Source: a virus
Virus record (IMG/VR): IMGVR_UViG_3300046535_000869
Coordinates: 38,083-102,082 of that record
Reading direction: 5' to 3' (one strand)
Length of the DNA stretch: 64,000 nt
The position numbers and the translations under genes are program-made. The notes beneath the pieces were generated by a model that made no database searches, was not told where the DNA came from, and was given only the letters and a program-made list of their open reading frames with translations. Below are positions 1,918 to 32,854 of the stretch, piece by piece. Within the stretch, counting starts at the first letter, position 1, and each line of letters starts with the position of its first letter.

Positions 1918-3705
1918 CTAGAACTGCTTGATGGCGATGCCTGACGGGAAGTCGACCTCAACGTCCGCGCCGGTCGTGACCAGCGTGAACGGGAAGAACG
2001 CGACCGGGACCGACTGCGTGTCGTCAGCGCTCACGTCCCGGTAGAGCACCATGCCGCCCAGCGTCTGCGCCGTCGTGACCGCCGGGAAGACCGGCGACGT
2101 GGCCGACAGCGTCGCGAGATCGTTCGTGTCGTCCTCCGCGACGGAACGCCCGGCCATCGTCTGCCGCGTCACGCCTGCCGCCTCCTTGCTCGTCACGTCG
2201 CCCGCGCTGCCGTCGTCGAGCGTCTGAAGATCCGGGTCGAAGACGTACGTCGACAGGACCAGCGTCATCTTGAGTGTCGACGTGTCGAGGTCGAGCGTGC
2301 CGATGAGTAGCTCCTTCTTCGCCCGGTTGTAGAGGTACTGCGCGCTCGCGCCTGCCGGTTGGATCGGCCCAATCCATGCGTAGTTCGTGGCCGCGCCAAG
2401 CGTCGGCGGATTTGCCGCGCCCTTGAGGAGCGTGTTCGTCGGCGTGTAGTCTCCTGTCTCTCCAGTCGCACTCACGTACTGCGGGTCAACGGCGAGATCG
2501 TGTGCTCCGGCGCTGATCGCGCTATATCCGCCAGCCGTGTTGTTGTAGACGTTGTTGAAGTCCATCAAGTGTCCGCCATAGCGGTCATTCGTCGCTGTCG
2601 TTCCACCTGAAAGCAGGAGTCCGTACCCACCATTGTTCGTCAAATTGTTGTTGTTGACGATTGTTCCAGCAGCGGTTTGGACAGACAAAGCTGTATCAGC
2701 ACAACTGTCGATGACGTTCCCTGTGATTATCGAGTTAAGCGCAATATCAGAACCTGACCCGGAGTGATCGTGGATAGCTGGCGAGGCTGCGCGACAACGG
2801 GTGATGACGTTACTGATGAACGCGCACCCTTTTGATGTGTCAAAGACAGGCCCACGATAGTTGTCGATGATGTTGCCGACTAACCGAGTAAAATAGAGAC
2901 CTCCATACAGCGCGTAGTAGGTTCCGGCTGAAGTGCTTCCAGAATTACGGATGATGTTGTCTGTGAAGGAGACGATTCCAGCTACAAACGTCCCATCGAA
3001 CCCGTTCTGGTCATAGATGCAGCTATCAACGGAAGCGCCGCCGTTCCCTTGGATGAAGCCGTTGTCGGTAAGAAAATTCGTCCCGGTCGGGACCATCTTG
3101 AGTTCGCGGAAGATCCAGCCATTGGCCTGATAGAACATCAACCCATTACAGGTCAGGTAAGGACGCCCGTTGTAGCCGAGTACGGTAATCGGTGCCTCTA
3201 ATGTTGACCCCAGTAGTTGGTTGTACCCCGTCTGTGCGACATCAGGCGTACTACCGAGGGCAGGATCGGTACTGCCTCCTGCCGCTCGGACGTTGACGAT
3301 GTTACCAGCGATGAGAGGAGAGGCGAGCAGGGGAGCCGTGATCGTTCCGCCGATGGACACATTTCTGAAGTCGGCCCACGCGCCGCCGATGCGCGCCGAC
3401 TGGCCGGTTCCGGTCCCGGTGTTTCGGTCGACGCCGATGGTGTTCGTGTTCGTGCGGCTGGTGATGACGTAGTAGCCGTCGCCAGCGATCCGAATCACGT
3501 TCCCGATCATCTGCGACGTGAAGCCGCCAGTGACGGACGTGACCGCGCCGGTCCCGACCGTGACGACGTCCGTCAGGCTGAGTTGTGGACTCGCCTGATC
3601 GGAGTAGTTCGTCCCGGCCCCGCTGATCGTGGAGTCGAAGCCTCCACCGTTCAGCTCGTCACCGTCGACGCGAATCCACCACTGTTGTGAGGCGAGGATC
3701 GACAT
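1918..3705 (-). CDS. Putative virion protein with parallel beta-helix (pectin-lyase-like) region and C-terminal phage structural domain
   Basis: Asn/Gly-rich PbH1-like repeats (ITGNVID, VNNNNLTNNGGYG). C-terminal YNRAKKELLIGTLDLDTSTLKMTLV resembles phage minor tail proteins. Confidence 0.6.
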   Translation of the reverse strand: MSILASQQWWIRVDGDELNGGGFDSTISGAGTNYSDQASPQLSLTDVVTVGTGAVTSVTGGFTSQMIGNVIRIAGDGYYVITSRTNTNTIGVDRNTGTGTGQSARIGGAWADFRNVSIGGTITAPLLASPLIAGNIVNVRAAGGSTDPALGSTPDVAQTGYNQLLGSTLEAPITVLGYNGRPYLTCNGLMFYQANGWIFRELKMVPTGTNFLTDNGFIQGNGGASVDSCIYDQNGFDGTFVAGIVSFTDNIIRNSGSTSAGTYYALYGGLYFTRLVGNIIDNYRGPVFDTSKGCAFISNVITRCRAASPAIHDHSGSGSDIALNSIITGNVIDSCADTALSVQTAAGTIVNNNNLTNNGGYGLLLSGGTTATNDRYGGHLMDFNNVYNNTAGGYSAISAGAHDLAVDPQYVSATGETGDYTPTNTLLKGAANPPTLGAATNYAWIGPIQPAGASAQYLYNRAKKELLIGTLDLDTSTLKMTLVLSTYVFDPDLQTLDDGSAGDVTSKEAAGVTRQTMAGRSVAEDDTNDLATLSATSPVFPAVTTAQTLGGMVLYRDVSADDTQSVPVAFFPFTLVTTGADVEVDFPSGIAIKQF

Positions 3706-29226: not shown

Positions 29227-29625
29227 TTAGCCCTTCCCATGCTTCGCCTCCTCCTCCAGTGCTGCCCAGGTCTCGCTGTTTTCGCTGACCATCTGGTTAT
29301 AGAACGCCTGGACCTCTGGCTTCTCGAACTGGTCCGCGTACGCCTCGCGCACGCCGTCCGGGAGCAGGTCGCTGTCACCGCCGTCGGCCGCGTCGGCGAC
29401 GGCCAGGAAGATCTCGACCAGCGCGCGGACGACGACCGGCTTCAGCGGCTCGCCCATCTTCGGTTTGAACATCATGCCCTCATGCCATCATGCCGCGACG
29501 TACCACTTCCCCAGGTAGCGGAACAGGACGCCGGTCGTCTGCCCCGGAGGCAGCGCGACGAAGCGCTGGATGTCCTCGTGGAAGACGACCAGCAGCGACC
29601 CGTCCGGTTGTCGTTCGACGCCCAT
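29227..29625 (-). CDS. Two small hypothetical ORFs (29227-29475; 29488-29625)
   Basis: 29488-29625 (MGVERQPDGS...) starts at the array end, with GAGGAG upstream. Confidence 0.5.
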
Positions 29626-30752
29626 GCCTGCCACTCCTCGCCGGGCCGCGCCACGCCTGCCCATCCGAACCCAGACTTGCCTTGCCCCGCCTTGCCTGCC
29701 GGACACCGCCTCGCTCTTCCTGACCTCTCCCTGCCATGCCTGCCAGACCGGACGAAGCCGGGCCTAGCCTCACCACGCCTGCCGAGCCGCTCCGCGCGCC
29801 GCCTAGCCTTACCTGTCCAGGCCCTGCTTCGCCTGGCCTGCCGAACCGCGCCTAGCCCAGCGCAACCGGACCTCGCCTGGCCTGCCGCTCCGTTCTTAGC
29901 CCAGCCAAGCCAGGCCGGGTCCAGCCCAACCTCGCCTGCCGCTCCACGCCACGCGATGCCGAACCCGTCAGCGCCGCGCACCGCCACGCCTGCCGAACCG
30001 TGCCGAACCGTGCCGAACCGTGCCAGGCCCAGCCTCGCCTCGCCAGGCCCATCCTGCCGAGCCGAGCCATGCCATTCCCGGCCTCGCCTTTCCTTACCTG
30101 CCTCGCCGAACACCGACTCGCCCTGCCTGGCTTCGCCCTGCCATGCCTGCCGAACCAGACCCAGCCAGTCCTCGCCTTACCTAACCAAGCCTGCCAAGCC
30201 CGACCGCGCCATTCCCGGCCGCGCCAGGACACGCCTAGCCTGCCGAGCCGCGCGCAACCTTACCCCGCCTGTCGTTACCCAACCACTCCATACCTGGCCT
30301 GCCGAGCCTAACCTATCCACGCATGACCACGCCTTGCCCAGCATTACCGAGCCTGCCGCTCCGAACTAAACCCAGCCGCGCCCGGCCGCGCAGCGCCTAA
30401 CCAGTCCTGCCGAACCGCGCCAGACCTAGCCGACCTGACCTAGCCGAACCTGCCGAACCGCTCCATGCCCGTCCCGACTACGCCCCGCTGGGCCAGTCAT
30501 GACCACGCCTGCCGATCCGACCTCACCAGTCCAGGCCCGGCCGAGCCTCGCCCCGCCTGCCAGACCTCGCTGGACCTTGCCCTACCAGACGCCGCCTTGC
30601 CGCGCCTGCCGTTCCTTGCCTCTCCAAGCCCGAACACGCCAGACCAGGCCAGTCCTAGCCCTACCACGCCTGCCTCGCCGTGACCCGCCATGCACCGCTG
30701 TGCCACGCCTGCCGAACCAGGCCGCGCCAGTCCTAGCCCTGCCTTGCCTGCC
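29626..30752 (-). ncRNA. GGY-NN pentamer array (~23 units delimited by GGCA), putative guide-RNA precursor
   Basis: Minus strand reads GGCA GGC AA GGC AG GGC TA GGA CT GGC GC GGC CT GGT TC GGCA GGC GT... Delimiter spacings are almost all 5n+4 nt. No credible protein in any frame. Confidence 0.8.
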
Positions 30753-30757
30753 GAGAC

Positions 30758-31387
30758 TTAGACGCGCTCGAACCGGCCCCAGCCCAGCGCGCTCGACCGC
30801 TCCGGCCGTCCCTCGCAGATCCCGACGCCCCAACCCGCCTGGTCAATCAGCGCCAGAAGCTGGGCCTGGCTGATGAGCCGAGGGTTGAATTCGATGCGGA
30901 CCCTGAGCTGCCAGTGCGGGTAGATCGGCCGGTAGACGAGGCCGCGCGTGTTGATCCCGATGGTGACCGCGTCCTCCCGCATCGCGCCGATGGCTGGCCC
31001 GCCGTTCGGCGTCTCGATGGGAACATACGCCGCGCCAGGCGACGCCACGCTGTCGACGAAGATCGCCTGCCGGAGCGCAACCTTGGTCAGATCGTCGAAC
31101 GCCGTCGCCGCCGAGATGAGGGACTTCTTGAGCGCCGTGATCGGCGCGCACTCCCGGCCCTGCTCGTCGACGTACCGCGCCGCCAGGAACTCCGTCTCCG
31201 GCACGCGCTCCGCCTTCGCCTTCTTCGCCTTCTTCTGCTGCTTGTCCCGGATCTCCTGCTTGGCCTTCTCGGCGAACGCATGGATGACCAGAGGCGATCC
31301 GTTGCGCCCGCGCAGCGTGACCTCGATGCTCTGGATGCCGGTCGTTGCCGTGTTCTCGGTTGGTGCTGCCAGTACTGCCGTCGTCAT
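30758..31387 (-). CDS. Stand-alone Cas7/RAMP-superfamily-like protein
   Basis: IEVTLRG..SPLVIH (beta1 + SPLhiG-like), APITALKKSLISAA (IPgsslKGalr-like), thumb-like REDAVTIG...YRP, C-terminal Gly-rich loop AGWGVGICEGRP....LGWGRF. Confidence 0.75.
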   Translation of the reverse strand: MTTAVLAAPTENTATTGIQSIEVTLRGRNGSPLVIHAFAEKAKQEIRDKQQKKAKKAKAERVPETEFLAARYVDEQGRECAPITALKKSLISAATAFDDLTKVALRQAIFVDSVASPGAAYVPIETPNGGPAIGAMREDAVTIGINTRGLVYRPIYPHWQLRVRIEFNPRLISQAQLLALIDQAGWGVGICEGRPERSSALGWGRFERV

Positions 31388-31408: not shown

Positions 31409-31963
31409 TTATTTGAGCTTCACGTTTCGGCCTTCGAGTTTGAGGCGGTCGGCCAGGGCCTGCTGGTCCGCCGCGTCGACGCAGGACACGGACAACCAGC
31501 ACGCGGTCGTCTCGCCCTTCGCGATCTTCTTGGTTTCCTTGATCTGCGCGCGCACCTGGTCGCGCGTGAGATGTTCCGCCTCGGCCTTGTCGAGCCAGGC
31601 GTCCTGCTGGTCCGGTTCCAGCGGCGCGACCTCCTGATGAATCGCGAACGGGAGCGACTCGCGCCGACGGCTCGGAGGAATCGCGCGCGCGACCCAGGCC
31701 AGGTTGTCCGCCGTCCCAGACTCGTAGTCGACCGCGTCGAGGAACTGGCTGTACGTCTCCGGGAAGGTGACCTCGCCGAACGCCAGCAGATCGCCGACCC
31801 AGAACGGACTCGCCCGGTGCGCGTGCTTGGCCCAGGCCAGCGTCTCGCCCCACTCCTCGACGGTCATGTCCTCGGTCGCGACGACACGGTTGCCCTCGAA
31901 CTCGAACTTCCCAATCGTGAACGGAGCGACCTCTAGGGCCTCAGCGACAGCTTCCATCGTCAT
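31409..31963 (-). CDS. LmbU-like DNA-binding protein
   Basis: FWVGDLLAFGE...Y...NLAWVARAIPPSRRRESLPFAIHQEVA...WLDKA. Confidence 0.7.
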   Translation of the reverse strand: MTMEAVAEALEVAPFTIGKFEFEGNRVVATEDMTVEEWGETLAWAKHAHRASPFWVGDLLAFGEVTFPETYSQFLDAVDYESGTADNLAWVARAIPPSRRRESLPFAIHQEVAPLEPDQQDAWLDKAEAEHLTRDQVRAQIKETKKIAKGETTACWLSVSCVDAADQQALADRLKLEGRNVKLK

Positions 31964-32418
31964 CTCCTAGCGCCGAACACTTCGCCCAGCACTTGAATCG
32001 CCCGGCCACTATATATCATATCAGTAGTGAAACGCAAGAGCCGATATCCAGCCAGCGTGAGCGCATTATACTTCTCGATGTCGTTCACGTACCCCTGCCC
32101 GAAGTTGTGCCGAGACTTCTGCCATGTCCCGCCCTCGACCTCGACGACCAGGCGACGGACAGCCCAGTAGAAGTCCACCTGCCACTTGCGCCCAGGAATC
32201 AGACGGACCTCGCGCTCTGGAGCCGGGATGCCATCCGAGTTGAGCTGGAGCAGGAGCGCCTCCTCGCCAGGACTCGGCGCGCGCTTCGCCTTGCGCCGCT
32301 CGACCGGCGTTTCCTCCGGCCAGTCGCGGACGACCTCGGCCCGCTTCAGATCGGCGCGCGGTTTCGGGAGCCGCCGCTTGAGTCGCATCACGTCGGCCTC
32401 GGTCCAGCGTTGCGTCAT
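31960..32418 (-). CDS. Vsr/DUF559-like PD-(D/E)XK endonuclease
   Basis: EREVRLIPGRKWQVDFYW...VVEVEGG...DIEKYNALTLAGYRLLRFT. Confidence 0.8.
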   Translation of the reverse strand: MTQRWTEADVMRLKRRLPKPRADLKRAEVVRDWPEETPVERRKAKRAPSPGEEALLLQLNSDGIPAPEREVRLIPGRKWQVDFYWAVRRLVVEVEGGTWQKSRHNFGQGYVNDIEKYNALTLAGYRLLRFTTDMIYSGRAIQVLGEVFGARR

Positions 32419-32605
32419 GCAGGACTCCACGTCGTCGAGCACCACGTACAGAAGAACTCGCCAGACGGTTTCGCGATGGCCCCGGTCTGTTGACAGCTCG
32501 GACATCTCGCCGACGTGAGGCGCGAGCGCTCGGCCTTGTCCTTCGGCAGCTTCATCATCGGCCGCGCGCCGGGCCGACGGAGGCCCAACTTCTCGTTGAT
32601 CTTGC

Positions 32606-32854
32606 TCATCGCCAGCCCGCGTCGTAGAGGTCAACCTGCATCTGGAGGTTCAACCAGAACTCCGGCGTCGTCTTCGTGTACTGCGCGAAGATGAGCGCCA
32701 CGCGCGTCGACACATTCCGCCGACCGTGGATGATGTCGCCGAGGTACGTCGCCGCGATGCCCATCTTCCGCGCGGCGTCCTGCTGGGTCTCGGATAGAAA
32801 CTGCTCAATGAAGACCTGACCGGGAGGCGTCGGCTCGCGCTGCTTCGGCGTCAT
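32606..32854 (-). CDS. HigA-family antitoxin / XRE HTH protein
   Basis: PTPPGQVFIEQFL...QQDAARKMG...IIHGRRNVS...TPEFWLNLQ..DL. Confidence 0.8.
   Translation of the reverse strand: MTPKQREPTPPGQVFIEQFLSETQQDAARKMGIAATYLGDIIHGRRNVSTRVALIFAQYTKTTPEFWLNLQMQVDLYDAGWR

What the first reader, a model, noticed from the sequence alone, without database searches (positions are those of the whole stretch)
29626..30752. Array grammar: GGCA punctuation yields ~23 guide-sized units of 5n+4 nt
Seen: delimiter GGCAGG (plus-strand CCTGCC) at 29627, 29656, 29695, 29739, 29778, 29837, 29881, 29935, 29989, 30053, 30097, 30146, 30190, 30239, 30298, 30352, 30406, 30449, 30508, 30556, 30605, 30669, 30708, 30747. 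Spacings are 29-64 nt, and all are 5n+4 except two (43, 48) that are 1 nt short. NN strings differ per unit: unit 1 AA-AG-TA-CT-GC-CT-TC; unit 2 GT-AC-GG-AT-GG-AC-GA; unit 3 GT-AG-TA-CT-CT-CT-GT-CG-TT-GA-AA-AC; unit 4 GC-AA-GG-CT-AG-AA-CC-GA-CT. A 10-nt triplication near 29991-30024 suggests slippage-driven expansion. Inference: a conserved register with diverse NN indicates selection on phase rather than a microsatellite, and the 4-nt register break may mark processing or filament boundaries.
Basis: partly seen in the sequence, partly recalled or inferred. Interest (0 to 1): 0.85.

Follow-up and report, generated by a model that had tools for sequence, protein, structure and literature searches.

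The report
Phage VIPR guide-RNA array, staggered type
The 1.1-kb five-base-periodic tract is the guide-RNA array of a VIPR system (a small CRISPR-like protein plus pentamer-coded guides, first described in 2026 preprints) in a soil phage. It is a genuine but already known kind of element whose targets remain unidentified.

Summary
On the minus strand, window 29626-30752 reads as (GG-Y-NN)n runs broken by 24 four-base GGCA steps. That gives 23 units of 5-12 pentamers, and 21 of 23 spacings are 5n+4. GG is near-invariant, position 3 is never G, and NN carries about 2 bits per base.

The array starts 5 nt after the stop of a 209-aa gene (30758-31387, minus). Its predicted fold is a Cas7/Csm3-like RAMP. 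Its family profile hits the experimentally characterised Vipr of Escherichia phage SUSP1 (E 9e-16).

This is therefore a VIPR locus (bioRxiv 10.64898/2026.04.26.720920, .720927, 2026.10.15.759431). The 5n+4 grammar is what the first preprint calls a 'staggered' array of vrRNAs overlapping by 1 nt.

The gene-plus-array module, with the same 5n+4 rule, recurs in about 24 of 28 IMG/VR loci, in Mycobacterium cluster F phages and in Gordonia phages.

- **Not shown here:** RNA ends, because no RNA runs exist.
- **Targets:** 1-nt-skip searches gave only chance-level matches.
- **Seen before:** this scan has noted VIPR-type loci in at least 307 other genomes.

Verdict: a new member of a known kind, of modest interest.

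The parts
30758..31387 (-). vipr gene: 209-aa single-RRM RAMP (Cas7/Csm3-like), phrog_4652
   Evidence: The AF2 model has pLDDT 93.9. By VIA-align against the PDB, the top 24 rows are all CRISPR RAMPs: Csm3 9g9a_D Z 10.9, Cmr4 6s6b_I Z 10.3, Csm3 6ae2_B Z 10.0. Foldseek gives Csm3 at E 3e-5. The family profile hits SUSP1 Vipr at E 8.9e-16, and hhalign gives 98%. phrog_4652 matches at E 7e-21.
29626..30752 (-). vrRNA array: 23 units, each GGCA followed by 5-12 GG-Y-NN pentamers. It sits flush between the vipr stop and the start codon of the next ORF.
30611..30674 (-). unit 3, a 12-pentamer guide (NN = GT-AG-TA-CT-CT-CT-GT-CG-TT-GA-AA-AC); example of a long regular unit
   Evidence: No exact 1-nt-skip match in IMG/VR.
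29995..30058 (-). unit 15, 12 pentamers, holding the (GGCAC GGTTC)x3 triplication
30103..30151 (-). unit 13, a near-duplicate guide of unit 21. NN agree at 15 of 16 bases and scaffold positions at 18 of 24.
29701..29744 (-). unit 21, the partner of unit 13
30514..30561 (-). unit 5, 48 nt: an exception to 5n+4 caused by an internal 4-nt GGTC step
30412..30454 (-). unit 7, 43 nt: an exception to 5n+4 caused by an internal 4-nt GGTC step
29629..29632 (-). the last GGCA step. It is followed by GGC-ATG, the start of a 46-aa ORF (29488-29626).
31409..31963 (-). 184-aa ORF directly upstream of vipr. It is a possible DNA-binding accessory (vap-like), is not conserved beside vipr in relatives, and is given as context only.
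   Evidence: No Pfam or PHROG match. Atlas structure neighbours are an LmbU regulator, HTH_ParB and methylase N-terminal domains. It is absent beside vipr in related loci.

Best explanation
The tract is the vrRNA array of a VIPR system carried by a 102-kb soil or rhizosphere phage.

It is probably transcribed from the minus strand together with the vipr gene just upstream (inferred). One Vipr protomer binds each pentamer, hides the GG-Y bases and presents the two N bases. Each unit thus becomes a helical filament whose 5-12 NN pairs read double-stranded DNA, skipping every third base, and silence it. That mechanism is shown for phage SUSP1 in the preprints and inferred here by homology.

The array is of the 'staggered' kind. 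Units have no structured tail, no ribozyme and no spacer. Each is set off from the next by a repeat that is one base short (GGCA|GG), so successive guides sit in different 5-nt phases. The phase break most likely ends one filament and starts the next, and exposes the junction to cleavage (inferred, not shown).

The 23 guides differ from one another and from those of related phages, as expected of a programmable panel aimed at competing mobile elements. Their targets are not yet known.
For: - **Grammar:**
- **Partner protein:** the AF2 model has pLDDT 93.9, and its best structural matches are Csm3, Cmr4 and Cas7.
- **Homology to a tested Vipr:** the family profile finds a single ORF in phage SUSP1 at E 8.9e-16. 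That ORF is flanked by GGYNN tracts laid out as the paper describes, one upstream and three downstream.
- **Contact residues:** the SUSP1 residues that contact vrRNA align with window residues. H17 aligns with H36, R138 with R153, D177 with E192 and R179 with R194. R153, R194 and P195 are invariant.
- **Linkage:** about 24 of 28 IMG/VR loci with a homolog have a period-5, G-rich array on the same strand next to the gene. Quico, Saal and UmaThurman do too. No flanking gene is conserved.
- **Covariation:** lineages with a different scaffold (GCA-NN in L029, AT-rich in L023) keep both the 5-nt period and the 5n+4 rule.
- **Turnover:** guides are not shared between phages whose Vipr is 70-85% identical. 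Near-identical pairs differ by whole units. One metagenome contig skips exactly 54 nt, 29879 to 29934, which is one unit (weak).
- **Literature:**
Against: - There is no RNA evidence for transcription or for ends at GGCA. The preprint confirmed other array types by sRNA-seq, but not the staggered type.
- The 1-nt skip rule has been demonstrated only for type II (SUSP1, P. fulva), and its validity for this clade is assumed.
- Units here have 5-12 repeats, shorter than the 9-16 reported for type II.
- No conserved vap gene accompanies vipr in this clade.
- The SUSP1 stacking residue W178 is Gly in the window protein.
Confidence: 0.85

Rival explanations
1. The array is a decoy or sponge RNA rather than a guide panel. 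It would soak up Vipr proteins of rival phages, or redirect them, as satellite-encoded solo vrRNAs do.
For: The October 2026 preprint describes solo vrRNAs that compete for Vipr. No natural targets were found for the units tested here.
Against: The array sits 5 nt downstream of its own vipr gene on the same strand, and this linkage is conserved. NN is maximally diverse. A pure sponge would not need that diversity.
Confidence: 0.07
2. The array is a DNA-level element, such as phased protein-binding sites, a G-quadruplex-forming tract or a replication or packaging signal, with no RNA role.
For: The tract shows strong strand asymmetry (GC skew about -0.35 on the plus strand) and GG every 5 nt.
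Against: Relatives with a GCA-NN scaffold have no GG runs yet keep the period and the 5n+4 rule. The G-rich strand is always the coding strand of the adjacent RAMP gene. The homologous SUSP1 tracts are expressed as RNAs that co-purify with Vipr.
Confidence: 0.04
3. The tract is a degenerate microsatellite, or a coding or pseudo-coding repeat, or a CRISPR array.
For: One perfect 10-nt triplication shows that slippage occurs. Long ORFs overlap the tract in several frames.
Against: - A period of 5 is not a multiple of 3, and no ORF spans the tract.
- NN entropy is 1.98-1.99 bits, whereas a microsatellite would be low.
- There are no repeats of 20 nt or more with unique spacers, only 60-80% families centred on the 6-nt delimiter.
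- The seven neighbouring ORFs tested showed no cas domains in Pfam.
- Rfam gave no match.
Confidence: 0.02

Closest known systems
VIPR systems with 'staggered' vrRNA arrays (bioRxiv 10.64898/2026.04.26.720920, text and fig. S18 legend)
   Same: A lone small RAMP gene sits next to a tract of GGY/NN pentamers. Successive units overlap by 1 nt, which is exactly the 5n+4 spacing seen here. The context is viral.
   Different: The preprint did not confirm this architecture by sRNA-seq, and the held text gives no delimiter sequence. Here the delimiter is GGCA|GG, there are 23 units, units can be as short as 5 repeats, and no conserved vap gene is present.
Type II VIPR of Escherichia phage SUSP1 (the experimentally characterised reference; .720920, .720927, 2026.10.15.759431)
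   Same: The Vipr proteins are homologous (profile E 8.9e-16) and the RNA-contact residues are conserved. Both use a GGYNN repeat code with NN hypervariable.
   Different: - Each SUSP1 vrRNA carries a 3' pseudoknot tail of about 40 nt, and the vrRNAs are separated from one another.
- SUSP1 has vap1 between vipr and the downstream vrRNAs.
- SUSP1 vrRNAs have 9-16 repeats.
- In the window, units abut directly with no tail.
Class 1 CRISPR Cas7 backbone (Csm3/Cmr4) on crRNA
   Same: Both have the RRM, G-loop and thumb fold (Z 9-11), and both form a protein filament that periodically flips guide bases.
   Different: - The period is 6 nt in CRISPR and 5 nt here.
- CRISPR spacers are contiguous, with no gapped NN code.
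- CRISPR arrays have 23-50-nt repeats and come with cas1/cas2 and effector genes. None of these is present here.
TRAP-type periodic RNA binding (triplets spaced by 2-3 nt; from my own knowledge of B. subtilis TRAP)
   Same: Both have a conserved triplet every 5 nt bound by an oligomeric protein.
   Different: TRAP is an unrelated protein fold that forms a ring rather than a filament. Its spacers carry no information, and it has no multi-unit array.

Membership tests
VIPR system | Vipr protein: a small (~20 kDa) single-RRM RAMP with a G-loop and thumb | tested here: met
   The protein is 209 aa and its AF2 model has pLDDT 93.9. The top 24 VIA-align rows are CRISPR RAMPs, with best Z 10.9, rmsd 3.6 and 150 residues aligned. 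The invariant C-terminal motif is G185, G189, R194, P195 and G204.
VIPR system | Sequence homology to an experimentally characterised Vipr (phage SUSP1) | tested here: met
   Profile A1 searched against the whole SUSP1 genome gives one hit, E 8.9e-16, covering positions 22-201 of 206. That ORF is flanked by GGYNN tracts. hhalign gives 98% probability, E 1.4e-13.
VIPR system | Conservation of the residues that hold G1, G2 and Y3 of the repeat (SUSP1 H17, R138, D177, W178, R179) | tested here: met
   H36, R153, E192 and R194 align with H17, R138, D177 and R179. W178 aligns with G193 in the window, though it is W in many family members. Four of the five residues are conserved.
VIPR system | vrRNA tract: at least 4 tandem YNNGG/GGYNN repeats with a conserved scaffold and hypervariable NN, next to vipr | tested here: met
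   Over 189 pentamers, G is 87%, G is 97%, and position 3 is C/T/A at 62/23/14% and never G. NN entropy is 1.98 and 1.99 bits. The tract starts 5 nt after the vipr stop on the same strand.
VIPR system | Staggered architecture: successive vrRNAs overlap by 1 nt | tested here: met
   21 of 23 spacings are 5n+4. The rule also holds in 59 of 69 units of relatives and 11 of 13 actinophage units.
VIPR system | Accessory vap gene (the paper says typical, not universal) | tested here: inconclusive
   No flanking gene is conserved among close relatives. The upstream 184-aa ORF has only atlas-level resemblance to ParB-HTH or LmbU-like domains. A conserved gene between vipr and the array does exist in the distant group L024-L031.
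VIPR system | vrRNAs are expressed and bound by Vipr | not testable with these tools
   No RNA run holds this sequence.
VIPR system | NN strings match DNA targets under the 1-nt skip rule better than controls | tested here: inconclusive
   In 0.35-0.79 Mb of local sequence, the best matches equal those of shuffled guides for skips 0-2. Exact-seed scans of IMG/VR for five window units, plus one full-length pattern, one metagenome scan and one Saal/Quico guide, gave only chance-level hits with no extension. These databases and tools were much weaker than the nhmmer pangenome searches used in the paper.
VIPR system | Viral or proviral context | tested here: met
   The window lies in a 102,082-bp IMG/VR virus record that CheckV rates 100% complete. 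Relatives are viral contigs and isolated Mycobacterium, Gordonia and Pseudomonas phages.
CRISPR-Cas | An array of identical 23-50-nt direct repeats separated by unique spacers | tested here: not met
   Only 60-82% repeat families centred on the 6-nt delimiter are found. TRF finds only short local repeats.
CRISPR-Cas | Adjacent cas genes (cas1/cas2, large subunit, nuclease) | tested here: not met
   Pfam and PHROG scans of the seven surrounding ORFs found only HTH_3, DUF559 and phrog_4652.

The most novel reading that the evidence does not exclude
In this clade the guide boundaries are encoded by nothing more than a repeat that is one base short (..CA|G). There is no tail, no ribozyme and no accessory gene.

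The short repeat co-varies with the Vipr lineage: GGCA|GG here, GCCA|GCA in L029 and ..CA|GAT in L023. That suggests either that Vipr itself measures and cuts at the phase break, or that the 1.1-kb transcript works uncut, as a string of 23 independently phased filaments. Either would be a new way to make or use multiplexed guides.
Probability: 0.3. Interest if true: 0.55.

Novelty: new member of a known kind. Interest (0 to 1): 0.3.

Why it matters
It adds a large (23-guide), tail-less VIPR array from an uncultured soil phage.

It also shows that the same module sits unannotated or mis-annotated in cultured actinophages. These are 27 Mycobacterium cluster F records and 5 Gordonia records, all labelled 'hypothetical protein'. 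In UmaThurman the array itself is called gene 40. Those phages grow on M. smegmatis and G. terrae, so the staggered architecture could be tested directly by small-RNA sequencing. The preprints did not verify this architecture experimentally.

The class, its code and the 1-nt overlap are already in print, so the finding confirms current knowledge and does not extend it.

Tried and rejected
- **G-quadruplex reading of (GGNNN)n:** dropped, because relatives with GCA-NN arrays have no GG yet keep the grammar.
- **TRAP or CsrA-like sponge:** dropped once the partner protein proved to be a RAMP.
- **Rfam:** no match.
- **Promoter and terminator scan:** nothing informative in or around the array.
- **RNA runs:** no RNA holder is listed, so expression and RNA ends could not be examined.
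- **Target search, local:** 1-nt-skip matches in the phage's own genome plus all fetched loci (0.35 Mb) and in full contigs of 18 Vipr-bearing relatives (0.79 Mb) were no better than shuffled guides. Mean best fraction was 0.76-0.78 for real guides and for controls.
- **Target search, collections:** exact seeds of 8-12 NN were scanned.
  - Units 3, 6, 9, 10 and 19 in IMG/VR.
  - Unit 17 in metagenomes.
  - The Saal/Quico shared guide in IMG/VR.
  - All returned counts near expectation, from unrelated low-GC or gut contigs, with no extension beyond the seed.
- **Duplicated guide:** the pattern with 1 mismatch in 20 records gave 2 hits in a MAG, and the reversed control gave 2 in another, so this is chance.
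- **Host inference:** close homologs lie on contigs binned to Acidobacteriota, Verrucomicrobiota, Alphaproteobacteria and Parcubacteria MAGs. These are contradictory, so the host is left open.
- **RNA fold of a 308-nt piece:** z = -3.0 against shuffles. Not interpreted, because the periodic sequence may inflate it.
- **SUSP1 vap1 comparison:** failed on my coordinates and was not repeated.

Full report
**What is in the sequence.** Window 29626-30752 has a lag-5 autocorrelation of 0.51. Lags that are not multiples of five stay near 0.2-0.3. No other 200-nt stretch of the 64-kb window passes the period-5 threshold.

Read on the minus strand, the tract is a chain of pentamers, GG-Y-NN. The chain is interrupted 24 times by a four-base step, GGCA, followed directly by GG. 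The four other CCTGCC in the tract are ordinary in-phase GGC-AG pentamers.

- **Units:** the 23 units hold 5-12 pentamers and measure 29-64 nt.
- **Spacing rule:** 21 of 23 are 5n+4. The two exceptions (43 and 48 nt) each contain one further 4-nt step, GGTC|GG. At least 21 of 23 in one residue class has probability 3.5e-13.
- **Composition over 189 pentamers:** position 1 is G in 87% and position 2 in 97%. Position 3 is C/T/A at 62/23/14% and never G. Positions 4 and 5 carry 1.98 and 1.99 bits and use all 16 dinucleotides.
the NN strings for units 1-4 and the 10-nt triplication at 29991-30024 are exact.

**Where it sits.** All genes here are on the minus strand. The array begins 5 nt after the stop codon of a 209-aa ORF (30758-31387). 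It ends at GGCA-GGC-ATG, the start of a 46-aa ORF. The ORFs that the ORF listing reports across the tract are artefacts of high G+C. None spans the tract, and a period of 5 cannot encode a repeat protein. Rfam has no match, and there are no CRISPR-like long repeats.

**The partner protein.** The 209-aa protein belongs to phrog_4652, of unknown function, and matches no Pfam family.

- **Family size:** at 50% clustering it has 1,949 relatives at E <= 0.001.
- **Structure:** an AlphaFold2 model built on 68 diverse sequences has mean pLDDT 93.9.
- **Structural matches:** in a search of 48,161 PDB representatives, the first 24 rows are all CRISPR RAMPs. They include Csm3 (9g9a_D, Z 10.9, rmsd 3.6 over 150 residues), Cmr4 (6s6b_I, Z 10.3), Csm3 (6ae2_B, Z 10.0) and Cas7-11. 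Foldseek agrees, with Csm3 at E 3e-5.

**Identification.** A literature search found three 2026 preprints on VIPR systems.

- **bioRxiv 10.64898/2026.04.26.720920** describes Vipr, a ~20-kDa ancestral RAMP encoded mostly by phages. It also describes vrRNAs made of alternating GGY/NN pentamers. The NN dinucleotides specify a double-stranded DNA target with one skipped base per repeat. The paper shows programmable transcriptional silencing and targets in competing phages and satellites.
- **.720927** gives cryo-EM structures. One protomer binds each repeat. GGY is sequestered by H17, R138, D177, W178 and R179, and NN is presented for pairing.
- **The first preprint also lists array variants.** These include 'staggered arrays with overlapping vrRNAs'. 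According to the fig. S18 legend, neighbouring vrRNAs share 1 nt. A 1-nt overlap of 5-nt repeats is exactly the 5n+4 spacing.

I then tied the window protein to the experimentally studied system. The family profile, searched over the whole SUSP1 genome, hits one ORF at E 8.9e-16. That ORF has one GGYNN tract upstream and three downstream of a second gene, as the paper describes. In a joint alignment H36, R153, E192 and R194 stand at the positions of H17, R138, D177 and R179. R153, R194 and P195 are invariant. W178 is Gly in the window protein.

**Conservation of the module.**

- **Co-occurrence in IMG/VR:** of 28 IMG/VR loci that encode a homolog, about 24 have a G-rich period-5 array on the same strand. 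It usually lies directly downstream of the gene and sometimes upstream.
- **Cultured phages:** the same holds in Mycobacterium phages Saal and Quico (cluster F, Cheoctovirus) and in Gordonia phage UmaThurman, whose proteins are about 32% identical to the window's. In all, 27 Mycobacterium, 5 Gordonia, 1 Pseudomonas and 1 cyanophage record carry a homolog, always annotated as hypothetical.
- **No other conserved gene:** nothing else around vipr is conserved among close relatives. A more distant group (L024-L031) has a conserved gene between vipr and the array, as SUSP1 does.
- **The 5n+4 rule elsewhere:**
  - It holds for 59 of 69 units in close relatives and 11 of 13 in the actinophages.
  - It also holds where the scaffold differs.
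    - L029 uses GCA-NN with GCCA|GCA steps (10 of 10 spacings).
    - L023 is AT-rich with ..CA|GAT steps (9 of 10).
  - That result removes a G-quadruplex explanation. It shows that scaffold and delimiter change together with the protein lineage.

**Turnover.**

- **Guide sharing:** phages whose Vipr proteins are 70-85% identical share no guides. Only near-identical pairs share units: L008/L009, and one unit in Saal/Quico. Those pairs differ by whole-unit duplications or losses.
- **A near-duplicate pair:** inside the window, units 13 and 21 agree at 15 of 16 NN bases but only 18 of 24 scaffold bases. This is suggestive of selection on NN but not significant on its own.
- **Other metagenomes:** contigs from other soil and rhizosphere metagenomes carry identical pieces of the array. 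One variant contig skips 29879 to 29934, which is 54 nt and exactly one unit. That contig is low-depth, so this is weak evidence.

**What could not be shown.**

- **Expression and RNA ends:** no RNA run holds the sequence, so both are untested.
- **Natural targets:** none were found.
  - Within 0.35-0.79 Mb of local sequence, real guides match no better than NN-shuffled guides at skips 0, 1 or 2. That sequence comprised the phage's own genome and the loci and full contigs of Vipr-bearing relatives.
  - Exact-seed scans of IMG/VR and the metagenome collection for six window units and one mycobacteriophage guide returned only chance hits, with no extension beyond the seed.
  - These searches needed exact seeds, and the host is unknown. 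They are much weaker than the published nhmmer pangenome searches, so the negative result is uninformative.

**Mechanism and verdict.**

- **Shown here:** the grammar, its conservation, the linkage to a RAMP gene and the homology of that gene to SUSP1 Vipr.
- **Taken from the preprints:** one protomer per pentamer, and NN reading of DNA with a 1-nt skip leading to silencing.
- **Inferred:** co-transcription with vipr, the GGCA phase break as the end of one filament or guide and the start of the next, and competing mobile elements as targets.

The locus is a new member of a known kind. This scan has already noted VIPR-type loci in at least 307 genomes.

What remains open, and testable in cultured mycobacteriophages, is how tail-less staggered arrays are turned into guides.

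Noticed in passing
L003 2856-3179 (Gordonia phage UmaThurman NC_031249 33362-33685); L001 about 2989-3010 (Mycobacterium phage Saal): UmaThurman gene 40, annotated as a hypothetical protein, lies wholly inside a GGYNN/GGCA array and is probably not a gene. The annotated start of Saal gene 51 (the Vipr homolog) runs into the array, whereas Quico's homolog starts 147 nt later.
   Followed up: partly
L029 3500-3950 and 4590-4860; L023 4500-5100: Distant Vipr lineages use other scaffolds but keep the 5n+4 spacing. L029 uses GCA-NN with GCCA|GCA steps, and L023 is AT-rich with ..CA|GAT steps. The common core of the delimiter is a repeat that lacks one N and ends in CA.
   Followed up: partly
window 31409-31963 (-): The 184-aa ORF just upstream of vipr has no Pfam or PHROG match. 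Atlas structure neighbours are LmbU-family regulators, HTH_ParB and N-terminal domains of phage MT-A70 methylases. It may be a DNA-binding accessory, but it is not conserved beside vipr in relatives.
   Followed up: partly
window 31960-32634 (-): This 224-aa protein has a DUF559 (Vsr-like endonuclease fold) C-terminal domain and matches phrog_503. It lies two genes upstream of vipr. Any relation to the VIPR module is unknown.
   Followed up: no
L141 reverse strand about 1385 and 2935 (phage SUSP1): Two SUSP1 repeat tracts (the upstream one and the last downstream one) end ...GGATGG(T/C)AGTAGCC at the start of the tail. This loosely resembles the GGCAG step here and the GGCAGTA steps of L025. 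The staggered delimiter might be a relic of a tail start.
   Followed up: no
window 30304-30611 (-): As RNA this piece folds 3 sd better than dinucleotide shuffles (z = -3.0), although it is G-rich and C-poor. This may be a by-product of the periodic sequence.
   Followed up: no
L024-L031, 50-1000 nt downstream of vipr: A gene of about 150-230 aa is conserved in 7 loci of the distant Vipr group. It lies between vipr and the array, the same order as vipr-vap1-vrRNAs in SUSP1.
   Followed up: no
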